Positions 1 to 64,000 of a stretch of DNA of 64,000 nucleotides are shown one piece after another. The notes under the pieces are model-generated. The model did not search any database. It was given only the letters and a program-made list of their open reading frames with translations, and was not told the origin of the DNA. The stretch is from the human T2T-CHM13v2.0 reference genome, Homo sapiens. The translations under genes were made by a program, and so were the position numbers. Within the stretch, counting starts at the first letter, position 1; the number at the start of each line of letters is the position of its first letter. Location of the stretch: contig CP086569.2 in assembly GCA_009914755.4 (NCBI GenBank), positions 12,288,001 through 12,352,000 on the forward strand, given 5' to 3'.

Positions 1-490
1 AATGGACCGGAAAGGAATGGAATCCAATGGAATGGAATTGAATGGAATCAAAAGGAATAGAAAGGAATAGAATGTAATTGAATGATATCGAATGGAAGGG
101 AATGGAATGAAGTCGAATGGAATGCACTGGAATGGAATGGACACGATCAGAACGGACTGGGGAGGAATGTACACAAATGGAATGGAAACGAATGGAATGG
201 AATGAAAAGGAATGGAATGAAATGGAATTGAAAGGAACGGAATGAAATGGAATGGAATGGAATGGAATGGATTGGAATAGAATGGATTCAAATAAAATAG
301 AATCGATTGGAATGCTATTGAATGGAAGGGACTTGAATGGAATGGAAAGCAATGGAAGATATTCGAATTGAATGGCATCGAATGAAATGGAATGGAACGC
401 AATGGAACGGACCCGAATGGAATGGAATGGACTCAAATGTAATGGACTCGAATGGAATCGACTGAAATATAATAGACTCGAATGGAATGG
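1..490 (+). repeat. Partial S-type HOR copy (distal end), upstream of the first complete copy
   Basis: Sequence at 1-490 is colinear with the last ~490 bp of the S-type copies (e.g. 11131-11618). Confidence 0.7.
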
Positions 491-36300: not shown

Positions 36301-37925
36301 AATCGAATGAAATGGAATTGAATGGAATAGAAAGGAATAGAATGGAATGGAGTTTAATGGAAAGATATTAAAAGTAATGGAATGGAATTGAGTGGACACG
36401 AATGGAATGGACTGGAATGGAAAGGACTCGAATGAAATGGAGCGCTTTAGAATGGACTCGAATGGAATGGATTGGAGTGGAATGCTCTCGAATGGATTGG
36501 AAACGAATGGAATGCAAAGGAATAGAATGGAATGTAATCAAATGGAACGAAATGGAATGGAATGGATTCGACTGGAACAGAATTGAATGGAGTGGAATTG
36601 ATTGGAATGGAATGCAATCGATTGGAATGAACACGAATGGAATAGAATGAAATGAAATGGCATAGATTGGAATGGAATGGAATGGAATGGAATGGCATGG
36701 CATGGAATGTAATGGAATGGAATGAAATTGATTGGAATGGGATGGGCCCAAAAGTAATGGTCTCAAATAAAAGGGACTCAAATAGAATGAATTGGAAAGA
36801 AACGGTCTCGAATGTAATTCATTCGAATGGAATGATATTGAATGGAATGCAATAGTATGGAATGGTATCGAATAGAATGGAATAGAATGGAATGGAATGG
36901 AACGGAATGGAGTGCATTTGAACGGACTCAAATGCAATAAATTGCAATATAATTGATTCAAATGGAATGGAATCGAATACAATGTAAACAAACGGAATGG
37001 AAGGCAATGCAATGGCAAGGAATCGAATGAAATGGAATAAATGGAATGGAATCGAATGGAAAGGACGCGAATATAATGGACTGTTAAGGAAAGGTCTCGA
37101 ATCGAATTTATTCCAATAGAATGGAATCGAATGGAATACAATACTATTGAATCGAATCGAATGGAATGGAATTGAATGGAATGGACAGGAATGGAATGAA
37201 CTGGAAGTGAATGGACAAGAACGTAATATATTGCAATGTAATGTATTCAAATGGAATGGAATGCAATGGAATGGAATGGACTCGATTGGAATGGACTGGA
37301 GTGGAATGGACTCAAATGGAATGGAAACGAAAGTAATGGAATGGAACTGAAAGCAAATGAATCTATTGGAATAGAATCGAACGGAACAGAAAGGAATGAA
37401 ATGGAATGGAGTGGAATGGAGTCGAATGGAATGTATTCGAATGTAATGGACCTGAAAGGAATGGAATCCTATGGAATGGGATTGAATGGAATCAAAAGGA
37501 ATAGAATGGAATAGAGTGTAATTGAATGATATCGAATGGAAGGGAATGGAATGAAATCGAATGGAATGCACTGGAATGGAATGGACTCGATCAGAACGGA
37601 CTGGAGAGGCATGTAGACAAATGAAATGGAAACGAATGGAATGGAATGAAATGGAATGGAAATGGAATTGAAAGGAACGGAATGGAATGGAATGGAATGG
37701 AATGGATTGGAATAGAATGGTTTCAAATAAAATAGAATCGATTGGAATGGTATTGAATGGAAGGGACTTGAATGGAATGGAAAGCAATGGAAGATATTGG
37801 AATCGAATGGCATCGAATGAAATGGAATGGAACGGAATGGAACGGACCCGAATGGAATGGAATGGACTCAAATATAATGGACTCGAAAGGAATCGACTGA
37901 AATATAATAGACTCGAAAAGAATGG
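30370..37925 (+). repeat. L-type HOR copy L2 (7556 bp)
   Basis: Landmark CCTCGAGCGG at 30370 and 37926. Block order is identical to L1, including the X block. Confidence 0.8.
34254..36271 (+). repeat. X block in L2 (~2.0 kb)
   Basis: Same entry and exit junction strings as in L1 (CTCTATGGGAATGAAGAGG at the start, GTGACATGTAATGG immediately after the end). Confidence 0.75.
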
Positions 37926-43900: not shown

Positions 43901-45455
43901 GAATCGAAGGGAATGGAATCGAATGAAATGGAATTGAATGGAATAGAAAGGAATAGAATGGAATGGAGTTTAATGGAAAGATATTAAAAGTAATGGAATG
44001 GAATTGAGTGGACACGAATGGAATGGACTGGAATGGAAAGGACTCCAATGAAATGGAGCACATTAGAATGGACTCGAATGGAATGGATTGGAGTGGAATG
44101 GTCTCGAATGGATTGGAAACGAATGGAATGCAAAGGAATAGAATGGAATGTAATCAAATGGAACGAAATGGAATGGAATGGATTCGACTGGAACAGAATT
44201 GAATGGAGTGGAATTGATTGGAATGGAATGCAATCGAATGGAATGAACACGAATGGAATAGAATGAAATGAAATGGCATAGAATGGAATGGAATGGAATG
44301 GAATGGAATGGCATGGAATGGAATGGAATGGAATGGAATGGCATGGAATGTAATGGAATGGAATGAAATTGATTGGAATGGGATGGGCCCAAAAGTAATG
44401 GACTCAAATAAAAGGGACTCAAATAGAATGAATTGGAAAGAAACGGTCTCGAATGTAATTCATTCGAATGGAATGATATTGAATGGAATGCAATAGTATG
44501 GAATGGTATTGAATAGAATGGAATAGAATGGAATGGAATGGAACGGAATGGAGTGCATTTGAACGGACTCAAATGCAATAAATTGCAATATAATTGATTC
44601 AAATGGAATGGAATCGAATACAATGTAAACAAACGGAATGGAAGGCAATGCAATGGCAAGGAATCGAATGAAATGGAATAAATGGAATGGAATCGAATGG
44701 AAAGGACGCGAATATAATGGACTGTTAAGGAAAGGTCTCGAATCGAATTTATTCCAATAGAATGGAATCGAAAGGAATGCAATACTATTGAATCGAATCG
44801 AATGGAATGGAATTCAATGGAATGGACAGGAATGGAATGAACTGGAAGTGAATGGACAAGAACGTAATATATTGCAATGTAATGTATTCAAATGGAATGG
44901 AATGCAATCGAATGGAATTGACTCGATTGGAATGGACTGGAGTGGAATGGACTCAAATGGAATGTATTCGAATGTAATGGACCTGAAAGGAATGGAATCC
45001 AATGGAATGGAATTGAATGGAATCAAAAGGAATAGAATGGAATAGAGTGTCATTGAATGATATCGAATGGAAGGGAATGGAATGAAATCGAATGGAATGC
45101 ACTGGAATGGAATGGACTCGATCAGAACGGACTGTAGCGGCATGTACACAAATCAAATGGAAACGAATGGAATGGAATGAAATGGAATGAAATGGAATTG
45201 AAAGGAACGGAATGGAATGGAATGGAATGGAATGGATTGGAATAAAATGGAGTAAAATAAAATAGAATCGATTGGAATGGTATTGAATGGAGGGGAATTG
45301 AATGGAATGGAAAGCAATGGAAGATATTGGAATCGAATGGCATCGAATGAAATGGAATGGAACGGAATGGAACGGACCCGAATGGAATGGAATGGACTCA
45401 AATGTAATGGACTCGAAAGGAATCGAATGAAATATAATAGACTCGAAAAGAATGG
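37926..45455 (+). repeat. L-type HOR copy L3 (7530 bp)
   Basis: Landmark at 37926; the next landmark at 45456 is the mutated form CCTCCAGCGG. L3 carries a ~115-bp deletion near 44960 relative to L1/L2. Confidence 0.8.
41840..43887 (+). repeat. X block in L3 (~2.05 kb)
   Basis: Same junction strings as in L1/L2. Confidence 0.75.
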
Positions 45456-48400
45456 CCTCCAGCGGAATTTATTTGAATAGAATGGAGTGAAATGGAATAC
45501 AATAGTATTGAATGGAATAGAATGGAATGGAATCGAATGGAATGTAATCCAATGGAATGGAACGGAATTCAATATAATGGAATAGAATGGAATGCATTGG
45601 AAAGGAGCAGAGTGGAATCGAGTGGAATGGAATCGAAAGGAATGGAATCAAAGGGAAAGAAATGGAATTGAATGGACTTGAATGGAATTGAGTCGAAAGG
45701 AATTGACTCGAAAGGAATGGACTGGAACAAAAAGGAATCAAATGGACAGGAATGGAATGGAATGGAATGGAATGGACTGGAATAGAATGGAGTCAAATGC
45801 AAACGCATCGAATGGAATGGATTGAAATGGAATGCAATTGAATGGAATAGAAAGGAAGAGAATGGAATTGAGAGTAATGGAAAGATATGGATTGGAATGA
45901 AATGGAATGGAAAGGAATTGAATGTTAAGGAATGGACTCGGAAGAAATGGATTGGAATTTAATGGTCTCCAATGGAATGGACTGGAGTGGAACGGAATCG
46001 AATGGAATGAAAAGAATGGAACGGAATGGAACGGAAAGGAATAGAATGTTATGGAATCCGATTGGACCGAATGGAATGGAATGGAGTTTCATGAAATGGA
46101 GTCGAATAGAGTGGCATCAAAAGGAATGTAATGGAACGGAGTGGACTCCAAAGGAATGGACTCGAAAGGAATGGAGACGAACCAAATTGAATCCAATGGA
46201 TTGGAGTCGAACAGAATGGAATGGAATGGAATGAATTCGACTGGAGTGGAGAGGAATGTAAAGGAATAGAATGGAATGTAATCAAATGGATTGCAACTGA
46301 ATGGAATCAAAAATAATAGAAAGGAATGGAGTGTAAAGGGATGATATTGAATATAATGGAATGGAATGGAATTCAATGGAATGGAGTCGAAGGAATGGAA
46401 AGGAATGTAATGGACTCCAATGGAATGGAATGGATGAAAATGGATTTGAACAGATTGGAATCGAACGGAATGGAATGCAATGGAATGGAATGGATTCGAA
46501 TGGAGAAGAGACAAATGGAATGGAAACGAATTCAATGGAATTGAAAAGAATAGAATGGAATGGCGTGTAATGGTAAGATACTAAATGGAATGGAATGGAA
46601 TGGAATGGAATGGATTGGAATGGACCCAAATGTAATGCCCTTGAATGGAATATACTCAAATAGAATGGAATCGAAAGGAAAGGTCTCAAATGGAATTTAT
46701 TCAATACAATGGAATCGAATGGAATGCAATAGAATGGAATGGAATCGAATGTAATGGAATCAAATAGAATGGACCAGAATGGAATGGACTGCCATAGAAC
46801 GGACTGCAGTGTAATGGATTGAATTCTAATTCATTCAAATGGAATGGAATTGAATGGAATGGAATCCAATGGAATGGATAGGATTGTACTGGATTGGAAT
46901 AGCATGGAATGCAACGGAGTGGAATGGAGTTGAATGAAGTGGAATGGAATCGATTGGAATGGAATCAAATGGAATGGACGGGAATGGAATGGACTGGAAG
47001 AGAACAGACTCGAATATAATGGATTGCAATGTAATTGATTCAAATGGAATGGAATCGAATGGAATGTAATAAAATTGAAGGGATTGGAGTTCAATGCAAA
47101 GGAAAAGAATAGAATGCAAAGGAATGGAAAGGAATGGAGTTAAATCGAATGTAATGGAATCGAATGGAATGAAATCGAATGGAATGGACTCAAAAGAAAT
47201 GGACGAGGGACAAAACTGAATCGAACTGATTGGAATGGAACGGAACGGAATGGAATGGAATGGTCTCCATTGGATCGGAGTAGAACGGATTGGAATGGAA
47301 TGGAATGAAATGGAATGGAAAGGAATAGAATGGAATGGAATGGAATGGAATGGAAGGTAATGGAAAGATAACGAACGGATTGGAAAGGAATGCAATGGAC
47401 CCTAATGGAATGGAATGGAATTCAACAGAAACCAATGGAATGGACTGGAGTGAAATGGAGTCGAATGTAATTGACTGGAGTGGAATGGACTCGAAAGGAA
47501 TGGACTCGAATAGAATGGACTGGAATGGATTGTGTTCGAATGGAGTGGAAAGGAATAAAATGGATTCCACCAGATTGGAATGGAACAGAATGGAATGGAA
47601 TGGAATGGAATGCAATGGAACGGATTGACTGGAATGGAGTCGAATGCAATGGAATAGAAAGGAAAGGAATTGAATGGAATTGAAAGTAATAGATTTAAAT
47701 GGAGTGCAAAGGAAAGATGTCGAATGGAATGGATCGAAAAGAAATAGAATGGAATGGACAGGAATGGAATGGAATAGAATGGAATAGACTGGCGTGCAAT
47801 GAAAACGAATGGAATGGAATGGAAAGGAATGGAGTAGAATAAATACTATGGAATGGAATGGAATGGAATGGAATGGAATGGAATGGAGGCGAAAGGAAAA
47901 GAATGGATTGGAATGTCACCGAATGGAAAGATAAGGAATGGAAAGGAGTGGATACGAATGGAATGGAATAGAAAGGAACAGAAAGGTAAAGAATGGAATG
48001 GAATCGGATAGAATGGAATGCAATGTAATGGAGTCGAATGGAAAATAATCGAGTAGAATGATATTGAATGGAATGGAATTTAATGGAATGGAATGGAATG
48101 GAATGGACTCGAATGGAATGTACTCAAATGGATTAGAATAGAATGGAATGGAACTAAACGTAATGAACTCGAATGGAATGGACACAAATAGAATGGAAGA
48201 GAAAGGAATGGTATTGAATGGAATTTATTCGAATAGAATGCAATTCAATGGAATGCAACAGTGTGGCATGGAATCAAATGGAATGGAATCGAATGGAATG
48301 GACCCGAGTGGAATGGACTCACATAGAACAGCCTGGAATGTAATGGATGACAGTGTATTAGATTCGAAAGGACTGAAATCGAATGGAATGTAATCAAATA

Positions 48401-51400
48401 GAACGGAATTGAATGCATGGAATGGCATAGAAAGTAATGCAATGGAATGGAATAGACTGGAATGGAATGGAATCGGATGGAATGTAATGAAATGTAATGG
48501 AAGGAATGCCATGGAATGGAATGGAATGGAATGCAATGGCCCGGTGTATAATGGAGTGCAATGGAATTCAGTGGAATGTAGTCAACAGGAATGAAATAGA
48601 ATGGAATTCAATATAAGGGAATGGCATCCAATGGCAGGGAATGGCATCCAATGGCAAGGAATGGAGTGGACTCCAATGGAAACAACATGAAAGGAATATA
48701 ATATAATGGAATGGCATTGAACGATATGGAATGCAATGGAGTTAAAAGGTAAGATATCAAATGGAAAAGAATTGAATGGACTCGAATGGAATATAACGGA
48801 ATGGAATGGACTCGAATGGAATGTACTAGAGTTGAATGGAATGGAATGGAATGGAAAACAATGGAAAGGAAAGGAAGGGAATTGAAAGGAAAGGAATAGA
48901 ATGGAATGGAATCGGATAGAACGGAATTGAATGGAATGGAAACTAAAGGAATAGCATAGAAAGGAATGGCATTGAATGGAATGGAATGGAATGGAATCAG
49001 ATGGAACAGAAAGGAATGGAATAGAATCGAATGGTATGGCATCGAATGGATTGGAATGGAATGTAATGGAATGGAAAGGAATGGAATGGACTCGAATGGA
49101 ATGTACTCAAATGGAATAGAATAGAATGGAATGGAAGTAAATATAATGGACTCGAATGGAATGGATTGGAATAAATTGGAATTGAATGTATTGGATTCGA
49201 ATGGAAAGGAATGGAATGGAATGGAATGGATTCGAATGGAATGGAATCGAATGGAATGGAACGAATTGGAATGTAATTGAATGGCGTCGAAAACAGTAGA
49301 AAGAAATGAAGTTTAATCGAATGATATCGAATGGAATTGAATGGAATGTACGCGAATGGAATGGACTGGAATGGAATGGACTCTATGGGAATGAAGAGGA
49401 GTGGAATGGACTCGAATGTCATGGAGACGATTGGAATGGAAAGGAATGCAAAGGAATGGAATGGAATGGAATCTGATGCATCGCCATGGAATGGAATGGG
49501 GTCGAATGGAATAGAATCGAAAGGAATGGCATCCAATGGAATGGAAACGAATTGAATGGAATGGCATGGAATGGAATGGAAAGGAATATAATGGAAAGGA
49601 ATCGGATGGAACGGAATGGAATGTAAAGGAGTCGAATGGAATAGAATCTAATAGAATTGCATTGATAGGAATGGAATCGAACTTACTCGAAAGGATTGGA
49701 GCCTAACAGAAGAGAATCGAACAGAATAGCATCAAATGGAATGGAAATGAATGGAATGGAATGGAATGGAATGGAATGGAATGGAATGGAATGGACACAC
49801 ATGTAATGGACTTGAATGGAATGGAATCAAATAGAATGGACGCGAATGGAATGTTCTCGAATGGAATTTATGAAAATAGAATGGAATCGAAAGTCATTGA
49901 ACATTATGGAATGGAATCAAATGGAATTAAATCGAATGGAAGGAACCGGAATGGAATGTACTGGAATAGAACGGACTCGAATGTTACGGAAAGAAAAGTA
50001 AGTGATTCGGATGTCTTTTAATTGAATGGAAAGAAATCAAATGGAATGGAAAGGAATAAAATGGAATGGAATGAAATAGAATGCAATAGAATGGAAGTGA
50101 GTGGAGTCGAGTTGAATGGAATCGAATTGAATGGAATAGAATGGAATAGAATCAAATGGAATGGACTCGAATGCAATGGAACCGAATGGAATGGACTGGA
50201 ACAAAATGGAATCGAACGTATTGGAATGGAAAGGAATGGAAAGGAATTGAATGCAACGGAAAGCAATGGAATCGAATGTAATGGAGTCGTATGTAGTGGA
50301 GTCGAATGGAATGGAATCAAATGGAAGGAAAAGAATACAATCGAATGGAATAGAATAGAATGCAACAGAATGAAACGGAGTGGAATCGAGTGGAATGGAA
50401 TAGAATTGAATGGAATGGAAAGGAATGGAATCGAATGGAATGGATCCGAGTGGAATGGATCCGAATGGAATGGAATGGAACAAAATGGAATTGAACAGAT
50501 TAGAATCGAATGGATCCGAATCGAATGGAATGGAATAGAATGGAATGGAATGGAATGGAATGGAATGGAATGGAATGGAATGGAATGGAATGGACCCAAA
50601 TGTGATGAACTCTAATGAAATGGACTTTAATAGAATGGATTAGAAAACAATGGGCTCGAATGGAATTTAATCAAGTCGAATTTAATGGAATGGAATGGAA
50701 TGCAAAACTATGGAATAGCATCAAATGGAATGGAACAGAATAGAGTGGAATGGAATGGAATACACAGGAATAGAACAGACTCGAATGTAATGGATTGCAA
50801 TGTAAGTGATTCAAAGGGAATGGAATCAAATGGAATATAATCAAATGGAATGGAATGGAGTGCATTGGAATGGAATAAAATGGAATGCAAACAATGGTAC
50901 AGAACTCATTTGAATCTAGAGGAGTGGAATCGAATGCAATGGGAAAGAATGGAATGGACACGAATGGAATGGATTGGAAACAAATGGAATGGAAAGGATT
51001 TTAATCATACAGAACAAAATAGAATGCAATGGACTCGAATGAAATGGAGTCGAAGAGAATAGTATCAAATGGAAAGGAATGGAATGTAATCGAATCGAAT
51101 GGAATGTTAATGAAATTAATTGAAAGGAATAGAATGGAATGAAGTGTAATGGAAAGATATCGAATTGAATGGAATTGAATGGAATGGACACAAACGGAAT
51201 GGACTGGAATGGAATGAACTGGAAAGGAATGGAATGGAGCGGAACGGACTCGAGTGCAATGGAATCGAATGGTATAGAATAGAATGGAATGGAATGGAAA
51301 GGAATAGAAGGGAATGGAATCGGATCCACGGGACAGATTGGAATGGGGTAGAATTGAATAGAATCGAATGGAATGGCATCGAATGTAATGGAATGGAATG

Positions 51401-52990
51401 GACTCGAATGGAATGGAGTGACATGTAATGGAATCGAAAGGAATGGAATCGAATGAAATGGAATTGAATGGAATAGAAAGGAATAGAATGGAATGGAGTT
51501 TAATGGAAAGATATTAAAAGTAATGGAATGGAATTGAGTGGACACGAATGGAATGGACTGGAATGGAAAGGACTCGAATGAAATGGAGCGCATTAGAATG
51601 GACTCGAATGGAATGGATTGGAGTGGAATGGTCTCGAATGGATTGGAAACGAATGGAATGCAAAGGAATAGAATGGAATGTAATCAAATGGAACGAAATG
51701 GAATGGAATGGATTCGACTGGAACAGAATTGAATGGAGTGGAATTGATTGGAATGGAATGCAATCGAATGGAATGAACACGAATGGAATAGAATGAAATG
51801 AAATGGCATAGAATGGAATGGAATGGAATGGAATGGAATGGCATGGAATGGAATGGAATGGAATGGAATGGAATGGCATGGAATGTAATGGAATGGAATG
51901 AAATTGATTGGAATGGGATGGGCCCAAAAGTAATGGACTCAAATAAAAGGGACTCAAATAGAATGAATTGGAAAGAAACGGTCTCGAATGTAATTCATTC
52001 GAATGGAATGATATTGAATGGAATGCAATAGTATGGAATGGTATTGAATAGAATGGAATAGAATGGAATGGAATGGAACGGAATGGAGTGCATTTGAACG
52101 GACTCAAATGCAATAAATTGCAATATAATTGATTCAAATGGAATGGAATCGAATACAATGTAAACAAACGGAATGGAAGGCAATGCAATGGCAAGGAATC
52201 GAATGAAATGGAATAAATGGAATGGAATCGAATGGAAAGGACGCGAATATAATGGACTGTTAAGGAAAGGTCTCGAATCGAATTTATTCCAATAGAATGG
52301 AATCGAAAGGAATGCAATACTATTGAATCGAATCGAATGGAATGGAATTCAATGGAATGGACAGGAATGGAATGAACTGGAAGTGAATGGACAAGAACGT
52401 AATATATTGCAATGTAATGTATTCAAATGGAATGGAATGCAATCGAATGGAATTGACTCGATTGGAATGGACTGGAGTGGAATGGACTCAAATGGAATGT
52501 ATTCGAATGTAATGGACCTGAAAGGAATGGAATCCAATGGAATGGAATTGAATGGAATCAAAAGGAATAGAATGGAATAGAGTGTCATTGAATGATATCG
52601 AATGGAAGGGAATGGAATGAAATCGAATGGAATGCACTGGAATGGAATGGACTCGATCAGAACGGACTGTAGCGGCATGTACACAAATGAAATGGAAACG
52701 AATGGAATGGAATGAAATGGAATGAAATGGAATTGAAAGGAACGGAATGGAATGGAATGGAATGGAATGGATTGGAATAAAATGGATTCAAATAAAATAG
52801 AATCGATTGGAATGGTATTGAATGGAGGGGAATTGAATGGAATGGAAAGCAATGGAAGATATTGGAATCGAATGGCATCGAATGAAATGGAATGGAACGG
52901 AATGGAACGGACCCGAATGGAATGGAATGGACTCAAATGTAATGGACTCGAAAGGAATCGAATGAAATATAATAGACTCGAAAAGAATGG
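45456..52990 (+). repeat. L-type HOR copy L4 (7535 bp)
   Basis: Landmark CCTCCAGCGG at 45456 and 52991. ORF translations are essentially identical to L5 (e.g. 44788..45045 = 52323..52580). Confidence 0.8.
49381..51417 (+). repeat. X block in L4 (~2.04 kb)
   Basis: Same junction strings as in L1/L2. Confidence 0.75.
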
Positions 52991-55900
52991 CCTCCAGCGG
53001 AATTTATTTGAATAGAATGGAGTGAAATGGAATACAATAATATTGAATGGAATAGAATGGAATGGAATCGAATGGAATGTAATCAAATGGAATGGAACGG
53101 AATTCAATATAATGGAATAGAATGGAATGCATTGGAAAGGAGCAGAGTGGAATCGAGTGGAATGGAATCGAAAGGAATGGAATCAAAGGGAAAGAAATGG
53201 AATTGAATGGACTTGAATGGAATTGAGTCGAAAGGAATTGACTCGAAAGGAATGGACTGGAACAAAAAGGAATCAAATGGACAGGAATGGAATGGAATGG
53301 AATGGAATGGACTGGAATAGAATGGAGTCAAATGCAAACGCATCGAATGGAATGGATTGAAATGGAATGCAATTGAATGGAATAGAAAGGAAGAGAATGG
53401 AATTGAGAGTAATGGAAAGATATGGATTGGAATGAAATGGAATGGAAAGGAATTGAATGTTAAGGAATGGACTCGGAAGAAATGGATTGGAATTTAATGG
53501 TCTCCAATGGAATGGACTGGAGTGGAACGGAATCGAATGGAATGAAAAGAATGGAACGGAATGGAACGGAAAGGAATAGAATGTTATGGAATCTGATTAG
53601 ACAGAATGGAATGGAATGGAGTTTCATGAAATGGAGTCGAATAGAGTGGCATCAAAAGGAATGTAATGGAACGGAGTGGACTCCAAAGGAATGGACTCGA
53701 AAGGAATGGAGACGAACCAAATTGAATCCAATGGATTGGAGTCGAAAAGAATGGAATGGAATGGAAGGAACTCGACTGGAGTGGAGAGGAATGTAAAGGA
53801 ATAGAATGGAATGTAATCAAATGGATTGCAACTGAATGGAATCAAAAATAATAGAAAGGAATGGAGTGTAAAGGGATGATATTGAATATAATGGAATGGA
53901 ATGGAATTCAATGGAATGGAGTCGAAGGAATGGAAAGGAATGTAATGGACTCCAATGGAATGGAATGGATGAAAATGGATTTGAACAGATTGGAATCGAA
54001 CGGAATGGAATGCAATGGAATGGAATGGATTCGAATGGAGAAGAGACAAATGGAATGGAAACGAATTCAGTGGAATTGAAAAGAATAGAATTTAATGGCG
54101 TGTAATGGTAAGATACTAAATGGAATGGAATGGAATGGAATGGAATGGATTGGAATGGACCCAAATGTAATGCCCTTGAATGGAATATACTCAAATAGAA
54201 TGGAATCGAAAGGAAAGGTCTCAAATGGAATTTATTCAATACAATGGAATCGAATGGAATGCAATAGAATGGAATGGAATCGAATGTAATGGAATCAAAT
54301 AGAATGGACCAGAATGGAATGGACTGCCATAGAACGGACTGCAGTGTAATGGATTGAATTCTAATTCATTCAAATGGAATGGAATTGAATGGAATGGAAT
54401 CCAATGGAATGGATAGGATTGTACTGGATTGGAATAGCATGGAATGCAACGGAGTGGAATGGAGTTGAATGAAGTGGAATGGAATCGATTGGAATGGAAT
54501 CAAATGGAATGGACGGGAATGGAATGGACTGGAAGAGAACAGACTCGAATATAATGGATTGCAATGTAATTGATTCAAATGGAATGGAATCGAATGGAAT
54601 GTAATAAAATTGAAGGGATTGGAGTTCAATGCAAAGGAAAAGAATGGAATGCAAAGGAATGGAAAGGAATGGAGTGAAATCGAGTGTAATGGAATCGAAT
54701 GGAATGAAATCGAATGGAATGGACTCAAAAGAAATGGACGAGGGACAAAACTGAATCGAACTGATTGGAATGGAACGGAACGGAATGGAATGGAATGGTC
54801 TCCATTGGATCGGAGTAGAACGGATTGGAATGGAATGGAATGAAATGGAATGGGAAGGAATAGAATGGAATGGAATGGAATGGAATGGAAGGTAATGGAA
54901 AGATAACGAACGGATTGGAAAGGAATGCAATGGACCCTAATGGAATGGAATGGAATGGAACAGAAACCGATGGAATGGACTGGAGTGAAATGGAGTCGAA
55001 TGTAATTGACTGGAGTGGAATGGACTCGAAAGGAATGGACTCGAATAGAATGGACTGGAATGGATTGTGTTCTAATGGAGTGGAAAGGAATAAAATGGAT
55101 TCCACCAGATTGGAATGGAACAGAATGGAATGGAATGGAATGGAATGCAATGGAACGGCTTGACTGGAATGGAGTCGAATGCAATGGAATAGAAAGGAAA
55201 GGAATTGAATGGAATTGAAAGTAATAGATTTAAATGGAGTGCAAAGGAAAGATGTCGAATGGAATGGATCGAAAAGAAATAGAATGGAATGGACAGGAAT
55301 GGAATGGAATAGAATGGAATAGACTGGCGTGCAATGAAAACGAATGGAATGGAATGGAAAGGAATGGAGTAGAATAAATACTATGGAATGGAATGGAATG
55401 GAATGGAATGGAATGGAATGGAGGCGAAAGGAAAAGAATGGATTGGAATGTCACCGAATGGAAAGATAAGGAATGGAAAGGAGTGGATACGAATGGAATG
55501 GAATAGAAAGGAACGGAAAGGTAAAGAATGGAATGGAATCGGATAGAATGGAATGCAATGTAATGGAGTCGAATGGAAAATAATCGAGTAGAATGATATT
55601 GAATGGAATGGAATTTAATGGAATGGAATGGAATGGAATGGACTCGAATGGAATGTACTCAAATGGATTAGAATAGAATGGAATGGAACTAAACGTAATG
55701 AACTCGAATGGAATGGACACAAATAGAATGGAAGAGAAAGGAATGGTATTGAATGGAATTTATTCGAATAGAATGTAATTCAATGGAATGCAACAGTGTG
55801 GCATGGAATCAAATGGAATGGAATCGAATGGAATGGACCCGAGTGGAATGGACTCACATAGAACAGCCTGGAATGTAATGGATGACAGTGTATTAGATTC

Positions 55901-56915
55901 GAAAGGACTGAAATCGAATGGAATGTAATCAAATAGAACGGAATTGAATGCATGGAATGGCATAGAAAGTAATGCAATGGAATGGAATAGACTGGAATGG
56001 AATGGAATCGGATGGAATGTAATGAAATGTAATGGAAGGAATGCCATGGAATGGAATGGAATGGAATGCAATGGCCCGGTGTATAATGGAGTGCAATGGA
56101 ATTCAGTGGAATGTAGTCAACAGGAATGAAATAGAATGGAATTCAATATAAGGGAATGGCATCCAATGGCAGGGAATGGCATCCAATGGCAAGGAATGGA
56201 GTGGACTCCAATGGAAACAACATGAAAGGAATATAATATAATGGAATGGCATTGAACGATATGGAATGCAATGGAGTTAAAAGGTAAGATATCAAATGGA
56301 AAAGAATTGAATGGACTCGAATGGAATATAACGGAATGGAACGGACTCGAATGGAATGTACTAGAGTTGAATGGAATGGAATGGAATGGAAAACAATGGA
56401 AAGGAAAGGAAGGGAATTGAAAGGAAAGGAATAGAATGGAATGGAATCGGATAGAACGGAATTGAATGGAATGGAAACTAAAGGAATAGCATAGAAAGGA
56501 ATGGCATTGAATGGAATGGAATGGAATGGAATCAGATGGAACAGAAAGGAATGGAATAGAATCGAATGGTATGGCATCGAATGGATTGGAATGGAATGTA
56601 ATGGAATGGAAAGGAATGGAATGGACTCGAATGGAATGTACTCAAATGGAATAGAATAGAATGGAATGGAAGTAAATATAATGGACTCGAATGGAATGGA
56701 TTGGAATAAATTGGAATTGAATGTATTGGATTCGAATGGAAAGGAATGGAATGGAATGGAATGGATTCGAATGGAATGGAATCGAATGGAATGGAACGAA
56801 TTGGAATGTAATTGAATGGCGTCGAAAACAGTAGAAAGAAATGAAGTTTAATCGAATGATATCGAATGGAATTGAATGGAATGTACGCGAATGGAATGGA
56901 CTGGAATGGAATGGA

Positions 56916-58948
56916 CTCTATGGGAATGAAGAGGAGTGGAATGGACTCGAATGTCATGGAGACGATTGGAATGGAAAGGAATGCAAAGGAATGGAATGGA
57001 ATGGAATCTGATGCATCGCCATGGAATGGAATGGGGTCGAATGGAATAGAATCGAAAGGAATGGCATCCAATGGAATGGAAACGAATTGAATGGAATGGC
57101 ATGGAATGGAATGGAAAGGAATATAATGGAAAGGAATCGGATGGAACGGAATGGAATGTAATGGAGTCGAATGGAATAGAATCTAATAGAATTGCATTGA
57201 TAGGAATGGAATCGAACGGACTCGAAAGGATTGGAGCCTAACAGAAGAGAATCGAACAGAATAGCATCAAATGGAATGGAAATGAATGGAATGGAATGGA
57301 ATGGAATGGAATGGAATGGAATGGAATGGAATGGAATGGACACACATGTAATGGACTTGAATGGAATGGAATCAAATAGAATGGACGCGAATGGAATGTT
57401 CTCAAATGGAATTTATGAAAATAGAATGGAATCGAAAGTCATTGAACATTATGGAATGGAATCAAATGGAATTAAATCGAATGGAAGGAACCGGAATGGA
57501 ATGTACTGGAATAGAACGGACTCGAATGTTACGGAAAGAAAAGTAAGTGATTCGGATGTCTTTTAATTGAATGGAAAGGAATAAAATGGAATGGAATGAA
57601 ATAGAATGCAATAGAATGGAAGTGAGTGGAGTCGAGTTGAATGGAATCGAATTGAATGGAATAGAATGGAATAGAATCAAATGGAATGGACTCGAATGCA
57701 ATGGAACCGAATGGAATGGACTGGAACAAAATGGAATCGAACGTATTGGAATGGAAAGGAATGGAAAGGAATTGAATGCAACGGAAAGCAATGGAATCGA
57801 ATGTAATGGAGTCGTATGTAGTGGAGTCGAATGGAATGGAATCAAATGGAAGGAAAAGAATACAATCGAATGGAATAGAATAGAATGCAACAGAATGAAA
57901 CGGAGTGGAATCGAGTGGAATGGAATAGAATTGAATGGAATGGAAAGGAATGGAATCGAATGGAATGGATCCGAGTGGAATGGATCCGAATGGAATGGAA
58001 TGGAACAAAATGGAATTGAACAGATTAGAATTGAATGGATCCGAATCGAATGGAATGGAATAGAATGGAATGGAATGGAATGGAATGGAATGGAATGGAA
58101 TGGAATGGAATGGAATGGAATGGACCCAAATGTGATGAACTCTAATGAAATGGACTTTAATAGAATGGATTAGAAAACAATGGGCTCGAATGGAATTTAA
58201 TCAAGTCGAATTTAATGGAATGGAATGGAATGCAAAACTATGGAATAGCATCAAATGGAATGGAACAGAATAGAGTGGAATGGAATGGAATACACAGGAA
58301 TAGAACAGACTCGAATGTAATGGATTGCAATGTAAGTGATTCAAAGGGAATGGAATCAAATGGAATATAATCAAATGGAATGGAATGGAGTGCATTGGAA
58401 TGGAATAAAATGGAATGCAAACAATGGTACAGAACTCATTTGAATCTAGAGGAGTGGAATCGAATGCAATGGGAAAGAATGGAATGGACACGAATGGAAT
58501 GGATTGGAAACAAATGGAATGGAAAGGATTTTAATCATACAGAACAAAATAGAATGCAATGGACTCGAATGAAATGGAGTCGAAGAGAATAGTATCAAAT
58601 GGAAAGGAATGGAATGCAATCGAATCGAATGGAATGTTAATGAAATTAATTGAAAGGAATAGAATGGAATGAAGTGTAATGGAAAGATATCGAATTGAAT
58701 GGAATTGAATGGAATGGACACAAACGGAATGGACTGGAATGGAATGAACTGGAAAGGAATGGAATGGAGCGGAACGGACTCGCGTGCAATGGAATCGAAT
58801 GGTATAGAATAGAATGGAATGGAATGGAAAGGAATAGAAGGGAATGGAATCGGATCCAACGGGACAGATTGGAATGGGGTAGAATTGAATAGAATCGAAT
58901 GGAATGGCATCGAATGTAATGGAATGGAATGGACTCGAATGGAATGGA
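56916..58948 (+). repeat. X block in L5 (~2.03 kb)
   Basis: Same junction strings as in L1/L2. Confidence 0.75.
58063..58124 (+). repeat. Uninterrupted (GGAAT)12 tract inside X block of L5 (example)
   Basis: Pure run read directly. Homologous tracts are at ~50535-50590, ~43008-43062, ~35400-35450 and an expanded, interrupted version at ~27720-27860. Confidence 0.8.
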
Positions 58949-60526
58949 GTGACATGTAATGGAATCGAAAGGAATGGAATCGAATGAAATGGAATTGAAT
59001 GGAATAGAAAGGAATAGAATGGAATGGAGTTTAATGGAAAGATATTAAAAGTAATGGAATGGAATTGAGTGGACACGAATGGAATGGACTGGAATGGAAA
59101 GGACTCGAATGAAATGGAGCGCATTAGAATGGACTCGAATGGAATGGATTGGAGTGGAATGGTCTCGAATGGATTGGAAACGAATGGAATGGAAAGGAGT
59201 AGAATGGAATGTAATCAAATGGAACGAAATGGAATGGAATGGATTCGACTGGAACAGAATTGAATGGAGTGGAATTGATTGGAATGGAATGCAATCGAAT
59301 GGAATGAACACGAATGGAATAGAATGAAATGAAGTGGCATAGAATGGAATGGAATGGAATGGAATGGAATGGAATGGAATGGAATGGAATGGAATGGCAT
59401 GGCATGGAATGTGATGGAATGGAATGAAATTGATTGGAATGGGATGGGCCCAAAAGTAAAGGACTCAAATAAAAGGGACTCAAATAGAATGAATTGGAAA
59501 GAAACGGTCTCGAATGTAATTCATTCGAATGGAATGATATTGAATGGAATGCAATAGTATGGAATGGTATCGAATAGAATGGAATAGAATGGAATGGAAT
59601 GGAACGGAATGGAGTGCATTTGAACGGACTCAAATGCAATAAATTGCAATATAATTGATTCAAATGGAATGGAATCGAATACAATGTAAACAAACGGAAT
59701 GGAAGGCAATGCAATGGCAAGGAATCGAATGAAATGGAATAAATGGAATGGAATCGAATGGAAAGGACGCGAATATAATGGACTGTTAAGGAAAGGACTC
59801 GAATCGAATTTATTCCAATAGAATGGAATCGAAAGGAATGCAATACTATAGAATCGAATCGAATGGAATGGAATTCAATGGAATGGACAGGAATGGAATG
59901 AACTGGAAGTGAATGGACAAGAACGTAATATATTGCAATGTAATGTATTCAAATGGAATGGAATGCAATCGAATGGAATTGACTCGATTGGAATGGACTG
60001 GAGTGGAATGGACTCAAATGGAATGTATTCGAATGTAATGGACCTGAAAGGAATGGAATCCAATGGAATGGAATTGAATGGAATCAAAAGGAATAGAATG
60101 GAATAGAGTGTCATTGAATGATATCGAATGGAAGGGAATGGAATGAAATCGAATGGAATGCACTGGAATGGAATGGACTCGATCAGAACGGACTGTAGCG
60201 GCATGTACACAAATGAAATGGAAACGAATGGAATGGAATGAAATGGAATGAAATGGAATTGAAAGGAACGGAATGGAATGGAATGGAATGGAATGGATTG
60301 GAATAAAATGGATTCAAATAAAATAGAATCGATTGGAATGGTATTGAATGGAGGGGAATTGAATGGAATGGAAAGCAATGGAAGATATTGGAATCGAATG
60401 GCATCGAATGAAATGGAATGGAACGGAATGGAACGGACCCGAATGGAATGGAATGGACTCAAATGTAATGGACTCGAAAGGAATCGAATGAAATATAATA
60501 GACTCGAAAAGAATGGCCTCCAGCGG

Positions 60527-63500
60527 AATTTATTTGAATAGAATGGAGTGAAATGGAATACAATAGTATTGAATGGAATAGAATGGAATGGAATCGAATG
60601 GAATGTAATCAAATGGAATGGAACGGAATTCAATATAATGGAATAGAATGGAATGCATTGGAAAGGAGCAGAGTGGAATCGAGTGGAATGGAATCGAAAG
60701 GAATGGAATCAAAGGGAAAGAAATGGAATTGAATGGACTTGAATGGAATTGAGTCGAAAGGAATTGACTCGAAAGGAATGGACTGGAACAAAAAGGAATC
60801 AAATGGACAGGAATGGAATGGAATGGAATGGAATGGACTGGAATAGAATGGAGTCAAATGCAAACGCATCGAATGGAATGGATTGAAATGGAATTCAATT
60901 GAATGGAATAGAAAGGAAGAGAATGGAATTGAGAGTAATGGAAAGATATGGATTGGAATGAAATGGAATGGAAAGGAATTGAATGTTAAGGAATGGACTC
61001 GGAAGAAATGGATTGGAATTTAATGGTCTCCAATGGAATGGACTGGAGTGGAACGGAATCGAATGGAATGAAAAGAATGGAACGGAATGGAACGGAAAGG
61101 AATAGAATGTTATGGAATCCGATTGGACCGAATGGAATGGAATGGAGTTTCATGAAATGGAGTCGAATAGAGTGGCATCAAAAGGAATGTAATGGAACGG
61201 AGTGGACTCCAAAGGAATGGACTCGAAAGGAATGGAGACGAACCAAATTGAATCCAATGGATTGGAGTCGAACAGAATGGAATGGAATGGAATGAACTCG
61301 ACTGGAGTGGAGAGGAATGTAAAGGAATAGAATGGAATGTAATCAAATGGATTGCAACTGAATGGAATCAAAAATAATAGAAAGGAATGGAGTGTAAAGG
61401 GATGATATTGAATATAATGGAATGGAATGGAATTCAATGGAATGGAGTCGAAGGAATGGAAAGGAATGTAATGGACTCCAATGGAATGGAATGGATGAAA
61501 ATGGATTTGAACAGATTGGAATCGAACGGAATGGAATGCAATGGAATGGAATGGATTCGAATGGAGAAGAGACAAATGGAATGGAAACGAATTCAATGGA
61601 ATTGAAAAGAATAGAATGGAATGGCGTGTAATGGTAAGATACTAAATGGAATGGAATGGAATGGAATGGAATGGATTGGAATGGACCCAAATGTAATGCC
61701 CTTGAATGGAATATACTCAAATAGAATGGAATCGAAAGGAAAGGTCTCAAATGGAATTTATTCAATACAATGGAATCGAATGGAATGCAATAGAATGGAA
61801 TGGAATCGAATGTAATGGAATCAAATAGAATGGACCAGAATGGAATGGACTGCCATAGAAGGGACTGCAGTGTAATGGATTGAATTCTAATTCATTCAAA
61901 TGGAATGGAATTGAATGGAATGGAATCCAATGGAATGGATAGGATTGTACTGGATTGGAATAGCATGGAATGCAACGGAGTGGAATGGAGTTGAATGAAG
62001 TGGAATGGAATCGATTGGAATGGAATCAAATGGAATGGACGGGAATGGAATGGACTGGAAGAGAACAGACTCGAATATAATGGATTGCAATGTAATTGAT
62101 TCAAATGGAATGGAATCGAATGGAATGTAATAAAATTGAAGGGATTGGAGTTCAATGCAAAGGAAAAGAATGGAATGCCAAGGAATGGAAATGAATGGAG
62201 TGAAATCGAGTGTAATGGAATCGAATGGAATGAAATCGAATGGAATGGACTCAAAAGAAATGGACGAGGGACAAAACTGAATCGAACTGATTGGAATGGA
62301 ACGGAACGGAATGGAATGGAATGGTCTCCATTGGATCGGAGTAGAACGGATTGGAATGGAATGGAATGAAATGGAATGGAAAGGAATAGAATGGAATGGA
62401 ATGGAATGGAATGGAAGGTAATGGAAAGATAACGAACGGATTGGAAAGGAATGCAATGGACCCTAATGGAATGGAATGGAATTCAACAGAAACCAATGGA
62501 ATGGACTGGAGTGAAATGGAGTCGAATGTAATTGACTGGAGTGGAATGGACTCGAAAGGAATGGACTCGAATAGAATGGACTGGAATGGATTGTGTTCGA
62601 ATGGAGTGGAAAGGAATAAAATGGATTCCACCAGATTGGAATGGAACAGAATGGAATGGAATGGAATGGAATGCAATGGAACGGCTTGACTGGAATGGAG
62701 TCGAATGCAATGGAATAGAAAGGAAAGGAATTGAATGGAATTGAAAGTAATAGATTTAAATGGAGTGCAAAGGAAAGATGTCGAATGGAATGGATCGAAA
62801 AGAAATAGAATGGAATGGACAGGAATGGAATGGAATAGAATGGAATAGACTGGCGTGCAATGAAAACGAATGGAATGGAATGGAAAGGAATGGAGTAGAA
62901 TAAATACTATGGAATGGAATGGAATGGAATGGAATGGAATGGAATGGAATGGAATGGAGGCGAAAGGAAAAGAATGGATTGGAATGTCACCGAATGGAAA
63001 GATAAGGAATGGAAAGGAGTGGATACGAATGGAATGGAATAGAAAGGAACGGAAAGGTAAAGAATGGAATGGAATCGGATAGAATGGAATGCAATGTAAT
63101 GGAGTCGAATGGAAAATAATCGAGTAGAATGATATTGAATGGAATGGAATTTAATGGAATGGAATGGAATGGAATGGACTCGAATGGAATGTACTCAAAT
63201 GGATTAGAATAGAATGGAATGGAACTAAACGTAATGAACTCGAATGGAATGGACACAAATAGAATGGAAGAGAAAGGAATGGTATTGAATGGAATTTATT
63301 CGAATAGAATGTAATTCAATGGAATGCAACAGTGTGGCATGGAATCAAATGGAATGGAATCGAATGGAATGGACCCGAGTGGAATGGACTCACATAGAAC
63401 AGCCTGGAATGTAATGGATGACAGTGTATTAGATTCGAAAGGACTGAAATCGAATGGAATGTAATCAAATAGAACGGAATTGAATGCATGGAATGGCATA

Positions 63501-64000
63501 GAAAGAAATGCAATGGAATGGAATAGACTGGAATGGAATGGAATCGGATGGAATGTAATGAAATGTAATGGAAGGAATGCCATGGAATGGAATGGAATGG
63601 AATGCAATGGCCCGGTGTATAATGGAGTGCAATGGAATTCAGTGGAATGTAGTCAACAGGAATGAAATAGAATGGAATTCAATATAAGGGAATGGCATCC
63701 AATGGCAGGGAATGGCATCCAATGGCAAGGAATGGAGTGGACTCCAATGGAAACAACATGAAAGGAATATAATATAATGGAATGGCATTGAACGATATGG
63801 AATGCAATGGAGTTAAAAGGTAAGATATCAAATGGAAAAGAATTGAATGGACTCGAATGGAATATAACGGAATGGAATGGACTCGAATGGAATGTACTAG
63901 AGTTGAATGGAATGGAATGGAATGGAAAACAATGGAAAGGAAAGGAAGGGAATTGAAAGGAAAGGAATAGAATGGAATGGAATCGGATAGAACGGAATTG
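60527..64000 (+). repeat. Partial L-type HOR copy L6 (first ~3.47 kb; the window ends before its X block)
   Basis: Colinear with L4/L5 from the landmark onward (e.g. ORF 60993..61295 identical to 45932..46234). Confidence 0.75.

What the first reader, a model, noticed from the sequence alone, without database searches (positions are those of the whole stretch)
44900..64000. Recent homogenisation block: L3-distal/L4/L5/L6 are near-identical and share derived variants
The last three landmarks (45456, 52991, 60527) read CCTCCAGCGG instead of CCTCGAGCGG. The same copies share a ~115-bp deletion relative to L1/L2 and the S copies, first seen near 44960. In L2 the corresponding sequence at ~37300-37440 is intact, including GGAATGGAAACGAAAGTAATGG...GGAGTGGAATGGAGTCGAATGG. 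Many ORF translations are letter-for-letter identical among these copies (e.g. 45932..46234 = 60993..61295; 44788..45045 = 52323..52580). L1 and L2 differ from them at numerous sites. This gradient suggests a recent local amplification or conversion domain inside the L array.
Basis: seen in the sequence. Interest (0 to 1): 0.5.

Follow-up and report, generated by a model that had tools for sequence, protein, structure and literature searches.

The report
Locally homogenised block in human satellite III
The last three 7.5-kb repeat units of this human satellite III array are about 99.5% identical and share private variants because they were copied from one another fairly recently, which is the ordinary way such satellite arrays evolve.

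Summary
The window is pure (GGAAT)n-derived satellite arranged in multi-kb units: four S units (~5.55 kb), then five and a half L units (~7.55 kb).

- **Identity:** L4, L5 and L6 are 99.44-99.60% identical. They are 98.6-98.8% to L3, 97.5-97.8% to L2 and 96.8-97.4% to L1. The (L4,L5,L6) clade has 100% bootstrap support.
- **Shared variants:** An identical 110-bp deletion (not ~115 bp) has junctions at 44955, 52490 and 60016.
- **Extent:** the block starts near 39,800 inside L3, not 44,900. An isolated 0.6-0.9 kb island lies at 38,128-38,718.
- **Identity of the sequence:** it carries the HSat3A3-specific 24-mer once per unit, a subfamily reported as Y-specific. It matches 21 contigs from metagenome assemblies, one of them titled human skin. 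All 21 have the G allele and none has the deletion junction.

Best explanation: in-register unequal exchange duplicated a 7.5-kb unit, short conversion tracts were added, and point mutations followed. This is the textbook mode of satellite evolution and is already described for HSat2/3 nested tandem repeats. Interest is low. "Recent" is only relative, roughly 0.2-3 My.

The parts
1..22224 (+). Four short (S) nested-tandem-repeat units of GGAAT-type satellite: S1 1-5565, S2 5566-11128, S3 11129-16677, S4 16678-22224.
   Evidence: TRF finds a 5-bp-based array over 1-63998. Chunk BLAST offsets are about 5.55 kb. Unit lengths and 98.4-98.8% mutual identity come.
22225..29889 (+). L1 (7665 bp), the first long unit. 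Its first ~1.1 kb is S-type and the rest is L-type, so it is the hybrid unit at the S/L domain boundary.
   Evidence: In the sliding windows, S4-L1 identity is 98.4-99.0% for alignment columns 250-1000 and drops to ~95% after column 1000. L1-L2 identity rises to 98.6-99.4% from column 1500.
29890..37444 (+). L2 (7555 bp), an older L unit with the ancestral landmark and the intact 110-bp segment.
37315..37424 (+). The intact 110-bp segment in L2 that is missing from L3, L4 and L5. It is bracketed by ~25-bp direct repeats GGAGTGGAATGGA[C/G]TC[A/G]AATGGAATG.
   Evidence: Sequence printed. The alignment gap of 110 columns is.
37445..44975 (+). L3 (7531 bp), a mosaic at the sites that define the L4-6 block. 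It is older-type at 37445-37959, block-type at 38128-38718, older-type at 38870-39687 and block-type at 39798-44975.
   Evidence: Site-by-site map. Runs test: 26 runs against 38.8 expected, permutation p = 0.0016. Sliding-window identity.
38128..38718 (+). Island of block-type sequence inside proximal L3. It spans at least 590 bp and at most ~910 bp (37960-38869), and is a candidate gene-conversion tract.
   Evidence: Nine consecutive 001111 events, including a 10-bp insertion, are flanked by runs of 000111 sites.
39798..64000 (+). The homogenised block as far as the window shows it: distal L3 + L4 + L5 + partial L6. Mutual identity is 99.0-100% in 500-bp windows. The right edge is not seen because the window ends.
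44976..52510 (+). L4 (7535 bp).
   Evidence: It carries 10 private substitutions in the first 3,964 bp.
52511..60036 (+). L5 (7526 bp).
   Evidence: It carries 11 private substitutions in the first 3,964 bp and a private 20-bp deletion.
60037..64000 (+). L6, partial (3964 bp), cut by the window end.
   Evidence: It carries 5 private substitutions and groups with L4 in 95% of bootstraps.
45456..45465 (+). Landmark with the block allele CCTCCAGCGG. The G>C change destroys the XhoI/TaqI site CTCGAG. The same allele is at 52991-53000 and 60517-60526.
   Evidence: All 21 independent metagenome-derived contigs carry the G allele.
44955..44956 (+). Junction of the 110-bp deletion. Identical junctions lie at 52490/52491 and 60016/60017.
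   Evidence: The 81-bp junction contexts are identical in all three copies. The junction 36-mer is absent from all 21 metagenome contigs and from genome contigs.
49369..51405 (+). The L-specific ~2.03-kb segment, shown here in L4. The other copies are L1 26577-28674, L2 34242-36259, L3 41828-43875 and L5 56904-58936. S units lack it.
   Evidence: Alignment gap of 2114 columns in S1-S4. Boundaries share the direct repeat ATGGAATGGACT[G/C]GAATGGAATGGA, and the segment is only ~70% similar to the rest of the unit.

Best explanation
The window is a stretch of human satellite III. It belongs to the A family and carries the marker of subfamily HSat3A3, which is reported as Y-specific, so it probably comes from the pericentromeric Yq HSat3/DYZ17 region. 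It is organised as multi-kb nested tandem repeats.

The proposed history of the L4/L5/L6 block is as follows. Within the L-type (7.5 kb) domain, one unit had already acquired a G>C change in the CTCGAG landmark. It had also lost 110 bp by slippage or unequal exchange between two ~25-bp direct repeats. That unit was then duplicated, in register, by unequal exchange between misaligned copies; on a Y chromosome these would be sister chromatids. This produced the run distal-L3 / L4 / L5 / L6, and the private variants were copied along passively. One exchange breakpoint lies near 39,700-39,800 in L3. A separate short gene-conversion tract of 0.6-0.9 kb pasted block-type sequence into proximal L3 at 38,128-38,718. 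After copying, each unit accumulated its own point mutations and 5-bp-multiple indels.

Shown directly: the unit structure, the identity hierarchy, the shared variants, the mosaic in L3 and the star-like private mutations. Inferred: the mechanism (unequal exchange plus conversion), the chromosomal origin and the timing. No function is implied. This is neutral concerted evolution of a satellite.
For: - Satellite nature: TRF finds a 5-bp-based array across 1-63998. There are 3,888 GGAAT against 20 ATTCC, and no Rfam hit.
- Subfamily: the HSat3A3-specific 24-mer from Table 1 of PMC4022460 occurs exactly 9 times, once per unit. No HSat2 or HSat3B marker is found even at 2 mismatches or fewer for most of them.
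- Human origin: 21 contigs from metagenome assemblies, one titled human skin metagenome, share the 31-bp landmark. The S- and L-type contigs are about 95-97.5% identical to the window, and all 21 carry the A3 24-mer. Collapsed circular contigs reproduce unit sizes of 5,564 and 7,571 bp.
- Identity hierarchy and clade support.
- Whole-unit, in-register tract: identity is 99-100% continuously over more than 24 kb, with constant offsets of 7,526-7,541 bp.
- Shared variants absent elsewhere: the C landmark and the deletion junction are missing from S1-4, L1, L2 and all 21 outside contigs. Of the distinguishing substitutions that could be polarised, 41 of 55 are derived in L4-6.
- Deletion flanked by direct repeats.
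- Star-like private substitutions (10, 11 and 5). Their transition/transversion ratio matches that of older differences.
- Mosaic L3: clustering has p = 0.0016, and tree topology differs between segments.
[quoted passage not shown] Y heterochromatin evolves by unequal exchange with observed sister-chromatid exchanges (10.1101/2022.12.01.518724). De novo SNVs were seen in DYZ17, and de novo events consistent with gene conversion in Yq12 (10.64898/2026.06.03.729890).
Against: - Amplification and pure conversion are not cleanly separable from one haplotype. No copy-number comparison was possible.
- The right edge is beyond the window, so the block may be the start of a much larger domain rather than a three-copy event.
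- L4 and L6 are closer to each other than either is to the intervening L5 (95% bootstrap). A single simple one-unit duplication series does not predict this. It needs either a two-step history or extra changes in L5, four of which match other copies.
- At the genome-wide Y substitution rate, the 0.13-0.28% private divergence per copy implies roughly 3 My, which is not 'recent' in absolute terms.
- The Y/DYZ17 assignment rests on one published subfamily-specific 24-mer and was not verified against a reference genome.
- The best outside contigs are only ~96-97.5% identical. That may reflect chimeric short-read assembly, but it leaves room for a different individual or array region.
Confidence: 0.7

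Rival explanations
1. Homogenisation by gene conversion alone. L4, L5 and L6 already existed as diverged units and were overwritten by sequence from one donor unit, with no change in copy number.
For: L3 shows an isolated block-type island of 0.6-0.9 kb flanked by older-type sequence, which is the signature of a conversion tract. A few L5 sites carry alleles that also occur in other copies. Events consistent with gene conversion are reported de novo in Yq12 satellite.
Against: The near-identity is continuous over more than 24 kb and includes every indel, with zero indel events between L4 and L5 in the first 3,974 columns. That would need conversion tracts of at least 7.5 kb, several times over. 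Unit offsets are constant. The pattern of private mutations is star-like.
Confidence: 0.15
2. The block is not a small local event. It is the left edge of a large homogeneous L-type core that continues beyond position 64,000. L1-L3 are progressively older transition units between the S domain and that core, in a layered-expansion geometry.
For: The tree is ladder-like, L1,(L2,(L3,(L4,L5,L6))), with identity rising monotonically towards the window end. The block is truncated by the window. Layered expansion is documented for centromeric satellites.
Against: None of the 21 contigs recovered with an allele-neutral landmark pattern carries the C allele or the deletion junction. These contigs include collapsed consensus L-type units from other human-associated samples. 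So this unit type is not the majority L type in those samples. This argument is weak, because the samples are few and the assemblies are collapsed.
Confidence: 0.3
3. Assembly artefact: one real unit was falsely duplicated, or reads were mis-phased, by the assembler in a hard-to-assemble satellite.
For: Satellite arrays are error-prone in assembly, and no read-level data are available here.
Against: The copies are not identical. They differ by 16-42 substitutions per pair plus private 5-, 10- and 20-bp indels. The transition/transversion ratio of private L4-6 changes (9:15) matches that of older singletons (42:63 and 48:65) and of fixed S/L differences (38:57). Unit lengths also differ (7535 and 7526 bp).
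Confidence: 0.04
4. The high identity reflects purifying selection on a functional element, such as a transcript or a protein-binding platform, within L4-L6.
For: HSat3 arrays are reported to carry transcription-factor motifs (PMC11526998). No evidence specific to this block was found.
Against: The similarity is uniform over whole units rather than focused on any element. The shared variants are a site loss and a deletion. The ORFs are translated pentamers with no hits on record. Rfam finds nothing. The S units, with the same motifs, are less similar to each other.
Confidence: 0.01

Closest known systems
Human satellite III subfamily HSat3A3 (Altemose et al. 2014, PMC4022460), in the pericentromeric Yq HSat3 / DYZ17 arrays (Hallast et al. 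2023 preprint 10.1101/2022.12.01.518658)
   Same: It is a diverged (CATTC)n/(GGAAT)n pentamer satellite. The published HSat3A3-specific 24-mer is present exactly once per unit. It matches contigs from metagenome assemblies, one of them titled human skin.
   Different: Chromosomal location was not verified here. I found no published description of the 5.55 / 7.55 / 8.93-kb unit classes of this array in the papers I could read.
Nested tandem repeats (NTRs) of HSat2/3, e.g. the 3.6-kb DYZ1 unit (HSat3A6) and the 1.77-kb chr1 HSat2 unit
   Same: Multi-kb repeat units are built from diverged pentamers. Units are 95-99.6% identical. [quoted passage not shown]
   Different: Unit lengths are different and longer. 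Here two length classes abut within 64 kb, joined by a hybrid unit.
Concerted evolution of tandem arrays by unequal crossing-over and conversion (the classic unequal-exchange model, from established knowledge; HOR-haplotype / layered expansion in alpha satellite)
   Same: Neighbouring copies are more alike than distant ones. Private variants are spread through a run of adjacent units. Genealogy is ladder-like. Mosaic units mark exchange points.
   Different: This is not alpha satellite and not centromeric chromatin. If it is Y-linked, only intrachromosomal (sister-chromatid or intrachromatid) exchange is available.

Membership tests
Human satellite III (HSat3) | Array derived from the pentamer (CATTC)n = (GGAAT)n | tested here: met
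   TRF gives period 5/10/15 over 1-63998. GGAAT occurs 3,888 times and AATGG 4,460 times on the + strand.
Human satellite III (HSat3) | Interspersed CAACCCGA(A/G)T decamer, described for classical satellite III clones (from my own knowledge; it applies to only some subfamilies) | tested here: not met
   CAACCC occurs 0 times. This fits the A family: among the published markers, ACTCGGGTTG appears only in the HSat3B1 24-mer. I do not treat this feature as defining for HSat3A.
HSat3 subfamily A3 (Altemose 2014) | Presence of the subfamily-specific 24-mer CTTTACACTCCATTCCTTTCTATT | tested here: met
   There are 9 exact matches on the minus strand, one per unit. The only other exact marker hit is a single HSat3A2 24-mer. 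Only one of the subfamily's many specific 24-mers was available to test.
HSat3 subfamily A3 (Altemose 2014) | Y-chromosome localisation | not testable with these tools
   No human reference genome is available among the tools. The inference rests only on Table 1 of PMC4022460.
HSat2 | HSat2A1, HSat2A2 or HSat2B specific 24-mers | tested here: not met
   There are 0 matches at up to 2 mismatches for all three.
Nested tandem repeat / higher-order organisation | Multi-kb periodicity, with units far more similar to each other than the subrepeats within a unit are | tested here: met
   Units are 95.4-99.6% identical, whereas different parts within a unit are ~70% similar.
Local homogenisation domain (unequal exchange / conversion) | Adjacent copies form a well-supported clade with shared private variants | tested here: met
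   The clade has 100% bootstrap support. The C landmark and the 110-bp deletion are shared. The variants are absent from 21 outside contigs.
Local homogenisation domain (unequal exchange / conversion) | Recombinant (mosaic) units at tract edges | tested here: met
   L3's states are clustered, p = 0.0016. Tree topologies are segment-specific. L1 is an S/L hybrid.
Local homogenisation domain (unequal exchange / conversion) | Copy-number polymorphism of the block between individuals or lineages | not testable with these tools
   This needs population long-read assemblies or k-mer counts in short-read data.

The most novel reading that the evidence does not exclude
The C-allele/110-bp-deletion unit type is a young, lineage-restricted and copy-number-polymorphic expansion in the Y pericentromeric HSat3 array. 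Its two diagnostic k-mers could then serve as a Y-haplogroup-informative satellite marker. They could also give a direct read-out of intrachromosomal unequal-exchange and conversion rates on a non-recombining chromosome.
Probability: 0.25. Interest if true: 0.3.

Novelty: already known. Interest (0 to 1): 0.12.

Why it matters
It matters little beyond bookkeeping. The finding is a clean, small-scale example of concerted evolution in a human satellite III nested-tandem-repeat array:
- a run of freshly copied units carrying hitch-hiking private variants;
- a mosaic unit marking an exchange point;
- a short conversion island.

If the array is the Y-linked HSat3A3/DYZ17 region, all exchange must be intrachromosomal. 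The block's diagnostic k-mers could then be used to count this unit type across male genomes. None of this changes current understanding. Local, hyper-local expansion of HSat NTRs and unequal exchange in Y heterochromatin are already published.

Tried and rejected
- **ORFs as genes:** rejected. The 'identical ORF translations' are identical DNA of pentamer repeat (WNGME-type peptides). Exact-product look-ups for three ORFs, two of which span the deletion junction or the landmark, found nothing on record.
- **Structured RNA:** Rfam at the gathering threshold gave 0 hits.
- **HSat2 or HSat3B assignment:** their marker 24-mers and the CAACCC motif are absent.
- **Independent copies of the block alleles:**
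  - The allele-neutral landmark scan of metagenome contigs gave 21 loci, all with the G allele.
  - Genome contigs gave 0 hits for the landmark and 0 for the deletion junction.
  - Viral contigs gave 0 hits.
  - The block-type unit was therefore not seen anywhere else. This is uninformative about its population frequency, because these are collapsed short-read contaminant contigs.
- **L-specific 2-kb segment as a recent internal duplication:** rejected. It is only ~70% similar to the rest of the unit, which is the background pentamer similarity.
- **Private L4-6 differences as assembly errors:** not supported. Their transition/transversion ratio equals that of older differences.
- **Published unit lengths for HSat3A3/DYZ17:** I could not find any in the searchable library.
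Full report
**What the window is**

The whole 64-kb window is one uninterrupted tandem array built from the pentamer GGAAT on the + strand. TRF finds periods of 10 and 15 over 1-63998. GC content is 0.36-0.39 and GC skew is about +0.6 throughout. GGAAT occurs 3,888 times against 20 ATTCC. Rfam finds nothing.

Superimposed on the pentamers is a multi-kb periodicity. BLAST of 1-kb chunks against the window gives one hit per unit. Offsets are about 5.55 kb in the first 22 kb and about 7.53-7.66 kb afterwards.

Phasing units from window position 1 gives these units:

| Unit | Coordinates | Length (bp) |
|---|---|---|
| S1 | 1-5565 | 5565 |
| S2 | 5566-11128 | 5563 |
| S3 | 11129-16677 | 5549 |
| S4 | 16678-22224 | 5547 |
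| L1 | 22225-29889 | 7665 |
| L2 | 29890-37444 | 7555 |
| L3 | 37445-44975 | 7531 |
| L4 | 44976-52510 | 7535 |
| L5 | 52511-60036 | 7526 |
| L6 (partial) | 60037-64000 | 3964 |

**Checking the observation**

- **Landmark.** The 10-mer CCTCSAGCGG occurs 10 times, against 0.03 expected by chance. The first seven read CCTCGAGCGG. The last three read CCTCCAGCGG, at 45456, 52991 and 60517.
- **Deletion.** It is 110 bp, exactly 22 pentamers. It is present at the ends of my L3, L4 and L5 and absent from S1-S4, L1 and L2. The 81-bp contexts of the three junctions (44955|6, 52490|1, 60016|7) are identical.
- **ORF pairs.** Both named pairs are identical at the DNA level.

| Comparison | Identity (%) |
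|---|---|
| L4-L5 | 99.44 |
| L4-L6 | 99.60 |
| L5-L6 | 99.49 |
| L4-6 vs L3 | 98.6-98.8 |
| L4-6 vs L2 | 97.5-97.8 |
| L4-6 vs L1 | 96.8-97.4 |
| S vs S | 98.4-98.8 |
| S vs L | 95.4-96.0 |

- **Raw counts.** L4 and L5 differ by 42 substitutions over 7.5 kb. L1 or L2 differ from L4 by 161-182.
- **Tree support.** Neighbour-joining with column bootstrap gives 100% support for (L4,L5,L6) and for (L3,L4,L5,L6) in the half shared by all ten units.

**Where the block really starts**

Sliding 500-column windows show that L3 joins L4-6 at 99.0% identity or more from about window position 39,900 to its end.

I collapsed the sites where L4=L5(=L6) differ from both L1 and L2 into 81 events. L3's state at these events runs as follows:
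- older-type at 37445-37959;
- block-type at 38128-38718;
- older-type at 38870-39687;
- predominantly block-type from 39798 onward.

This clustering is non-random: 26 runs against 38.8 expected, permutation p = 0.0016.

The block visible in the window therefore spans about 39,800-64,000, plus a 0.6-0.9-kb island in proximal L3. Its right edge lies beyond the window.

Tree topology also changes by segment. Columns 0-2300 give a ladder L1,(L2,(L3,(L4-6))). Columns 2300-3974 give two clean clades, (L1,L2) and (L3-L6), each with 100% support. Different segments have different genealogies, which means exchange has occurred.

**Are the shared variants derived?**

S units serve as an outgroup outside the L-specific segment. 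For an independent outgroup, I scanned the metagenome collection with the landmark 31-mer, using S at the variable base so that either allele would match. This returned 21 contigs.

- One contig is titled 'human skin metagenome'. I take all of them to be host contamination.
- All 21 carry the G allele, and none has the deletion junction.
- All 21 carry the HSat3A3 marker 24-mer.

Testing 25-mers centred on the 74 distinguishing substitutions gave this split:

| Result | Sites |
|---|---|
| Only the L1/L2 state is seen outside (derived in L4-6) | 41 |
| Only the L4-6 state is seen outside (derived in L1/L2) | 14 |
| Both states seen | 8 |
| Uninformative | 11 |

'Shared derived variants' is therefore right for about three quarters of the polarised sites, and for both headline variants.

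**What the sequence is**

Table 1 of Altemose et al. 2014 (PMC4022460) lists one diagnostic 24-mer per HSat2/3 subfamily.

- The HSat3A3 24-mer occurs exactly 9 times, once per unit.
- The only other exact marker hit is a single HSat3A2 24-mer.
- The HSat2 markers and the HSat3B1 and B4 markers give 0 hits even at 2 mismatches.
- The CAACCC motif, found in the HSat3B1 marker, is absent.

HSat3A3 is described as a Y-specific subfamily of about 0.84 Mb. The Y pericentromere holds an HSat3 array of 372-488 kb followed by DYZ17 of 0.86-1.74 Mb.

Three collapsed, circularly overlapping contigs give unit sizes of 5,564 bp (L013), 7,571 bp (L003) and 8,929-8,939 bp (L012, L019). The S and L unit classes of the window therefore recur in other human-associated samples, and a third, longer class exists.

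I conclude the window is human HSat3, A3-type, probably Yq pericentromeric. The chromosomal assignment is inference, because no human reference was available to test it.

**Mechanism**

Several features together fit duplication of whole units by in-register unequal exchange, followed by independent mutation:
- Near-identity is continuous over more than 24 kb.
- Register is constant, with offsets of 7,526-7,541 bp.
- All indels are shared. L4 and L5 have zero indel events between them in the first 3,974 columns.
- The differences are star-like: 10, 11 and 5 private substitutions in L4, L5 and L6 over the shared 3,964 bp. Only a handful of sites match other copies.

The switch in L3 near 39,700-39,800 is a plausible exchange breakpoint. 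The 38,128-38,718 island is best read as a short conversion tract.

The 110-bp deletion lies between two ~25-bp direct repeats, GGAGTGGAATGGA[C/G]TC[A/G]AATGGAATG. It probably arose once by slippage or small-scale unequal exchange and was then copied along with its unit. The G>C landmark change was copied the same way.

If the array is on the male-specific Y, only sister-chromatid or intrachromatid exchange is available. This matches published evidence:
- unequal exchange and sister-chromatid exchange in Y heterochromatin;
- de novo events consistent with gene conversion in Yq12, and de novo SNVs in DYZ17.

The T2T centromere paper already states that HSat2/3 nested tandem repeats vary in periodicity within arrays and expand hyper-locally.

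**How recent is it?**

Private divergence per copy is 0.13-0.28%.
- At the Y substitution rate quoted (95% CI 0.67-0.86e-9 per site per year), that is about 3 My.
- The same preprint reports 2 de novo SNVs in DYZ17 across six transmissions. For an array of ~1.1 Mb, that would imply a rate more than ten times higher and an age nearer 0.2 My. This figure rests on n = 2 and is very rough.

'Recent' is therefore safe only in the relative sense.

**Rivals**

- **Conversion without copy-number change.** It cannot be excluded from one haplotype, but it would need repeated tracts of at least 7.5 kb.
- **Edge of a larger homogeneous L core.** The ladder-like rise of identity toward the window end makes this a live possibility. 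The absence of the block alleles from outside contigs argues weakly against this unit type being the majority.
- **Assembly duplication.** This is unlikely. The copies differ by 16-42 substitutions and by private indels. Their transition/transversion ratio (9:15) matches that of older singletons (42:63, 48:65) and of fixed S/L differences (38:57).
- **Selection on a functional element.** Nothing supports it.

**Verdict**

- the deletion is 110 bp, not ~115 bp;
- the third landmark is at 60517, not 60527;
- the left edge is at about 39.8 kb, and L3 is a mosaic;
- about a quarter of the distinguishing sites are derived in L1/L2 rather than in L4-6.

This is the ordinary, already-described mode of evolution of human satellite III arrays. 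It is not a new kind of feature, and interest is low.

Noticed in passing
window 49369-51405 (L4); also 26577-28674, 34242-36259, 41828-43875, 56904-58936; S junctions after 4360, 9913, 15462, 21030: S and L units differ by a single ~2.03-2.10-kb segment. Its two boundaries share the direct repeat ATGGAATGGACT[G/C]GAATGGAATGGA. The segment is only ~70% similar to the rest of the unit, which is background pentamer similarity. The S unit therefore looks like a deletion derivative of an L-type unit, not L an internal duplication of S.
   Followed up: partly
window 22225-23600 (start of L1): L1 is an S/L hybrid. Its first ~1.1 kb is 98.4-99.0% identical to S4 and only ~95-96% to L2. From about 23,600 it becomes L-type (98.6-99.4% to L2). 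This marks the exchange point where the 5.55-kb domain switches to the 7.55-kb domain.
   Followed up: partly
loci L012 (8985 bp), L019 (8990 bp), L007, L018: Some contigs from metagenome assemblies carry the landmark twice, 1,373 bp apart. Two of them close on themselves as units of 8,929 and 8,939 bp. This suggests a third, longer unit class with an internal 1.37-kb duplication elsewhere in the same satellite family. These contigs are only ~83-90% identical to the window.
   Followed up: partly
loci L001-L021: Contigs in public metagenome assemblies, one of them titled human skin metagenome, are HSat3A3-type human satellite, i.e. unremoved host DNA. Three (L003, L013, L012/L019) are circularly collapsed repeat units.
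   Followed up: yes
window 44976-64000: L4 and L6 are closer to each other (16 substitutions) than either is to the intervening L5 (26 and 20). The L4+L6 grouping has 95% bootstrap support. L5 carries four sites whose alleles match other copies. This hints at a two-step history or small conversions into L5.
   Followed up: partly
whole window: The transition/transversion ratio is low, about 0.6-0.75, in every class of difference: fixed S vs L 38:57, S singletons 42:63, L1-3 singletons 48:65, L4-6 singletons 9:15. This is unlike the ~2:1 typical of the human genome (from my own knowledge). The cause is unknown. It may reflect interconversion between pre-existing pentamer variants.
   Followed up: partly
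window CTCGAG sites: 492, 4123, 6047, 9671, 11620, 15255, 17169, 20813, 22711, 28517, 30371, 36102, 37927, 43718, 51249: Each older unit has two XhoI sites. L4-L6 lost the landmark site. L5 also privately lost the second site through an A>C change at the position homologous to 51253. No CTCGAG occurs from 51,250 to the window end, so the block would be visible as a large XhoI-resistant fragment.
   Followed up: no
window ~6880 (S2): S2 is the only complete unit that lacks an exact copy of the HSat3A3 marker 24-mer. Exact hits fall in nine of the ten units.
   Followed up: no
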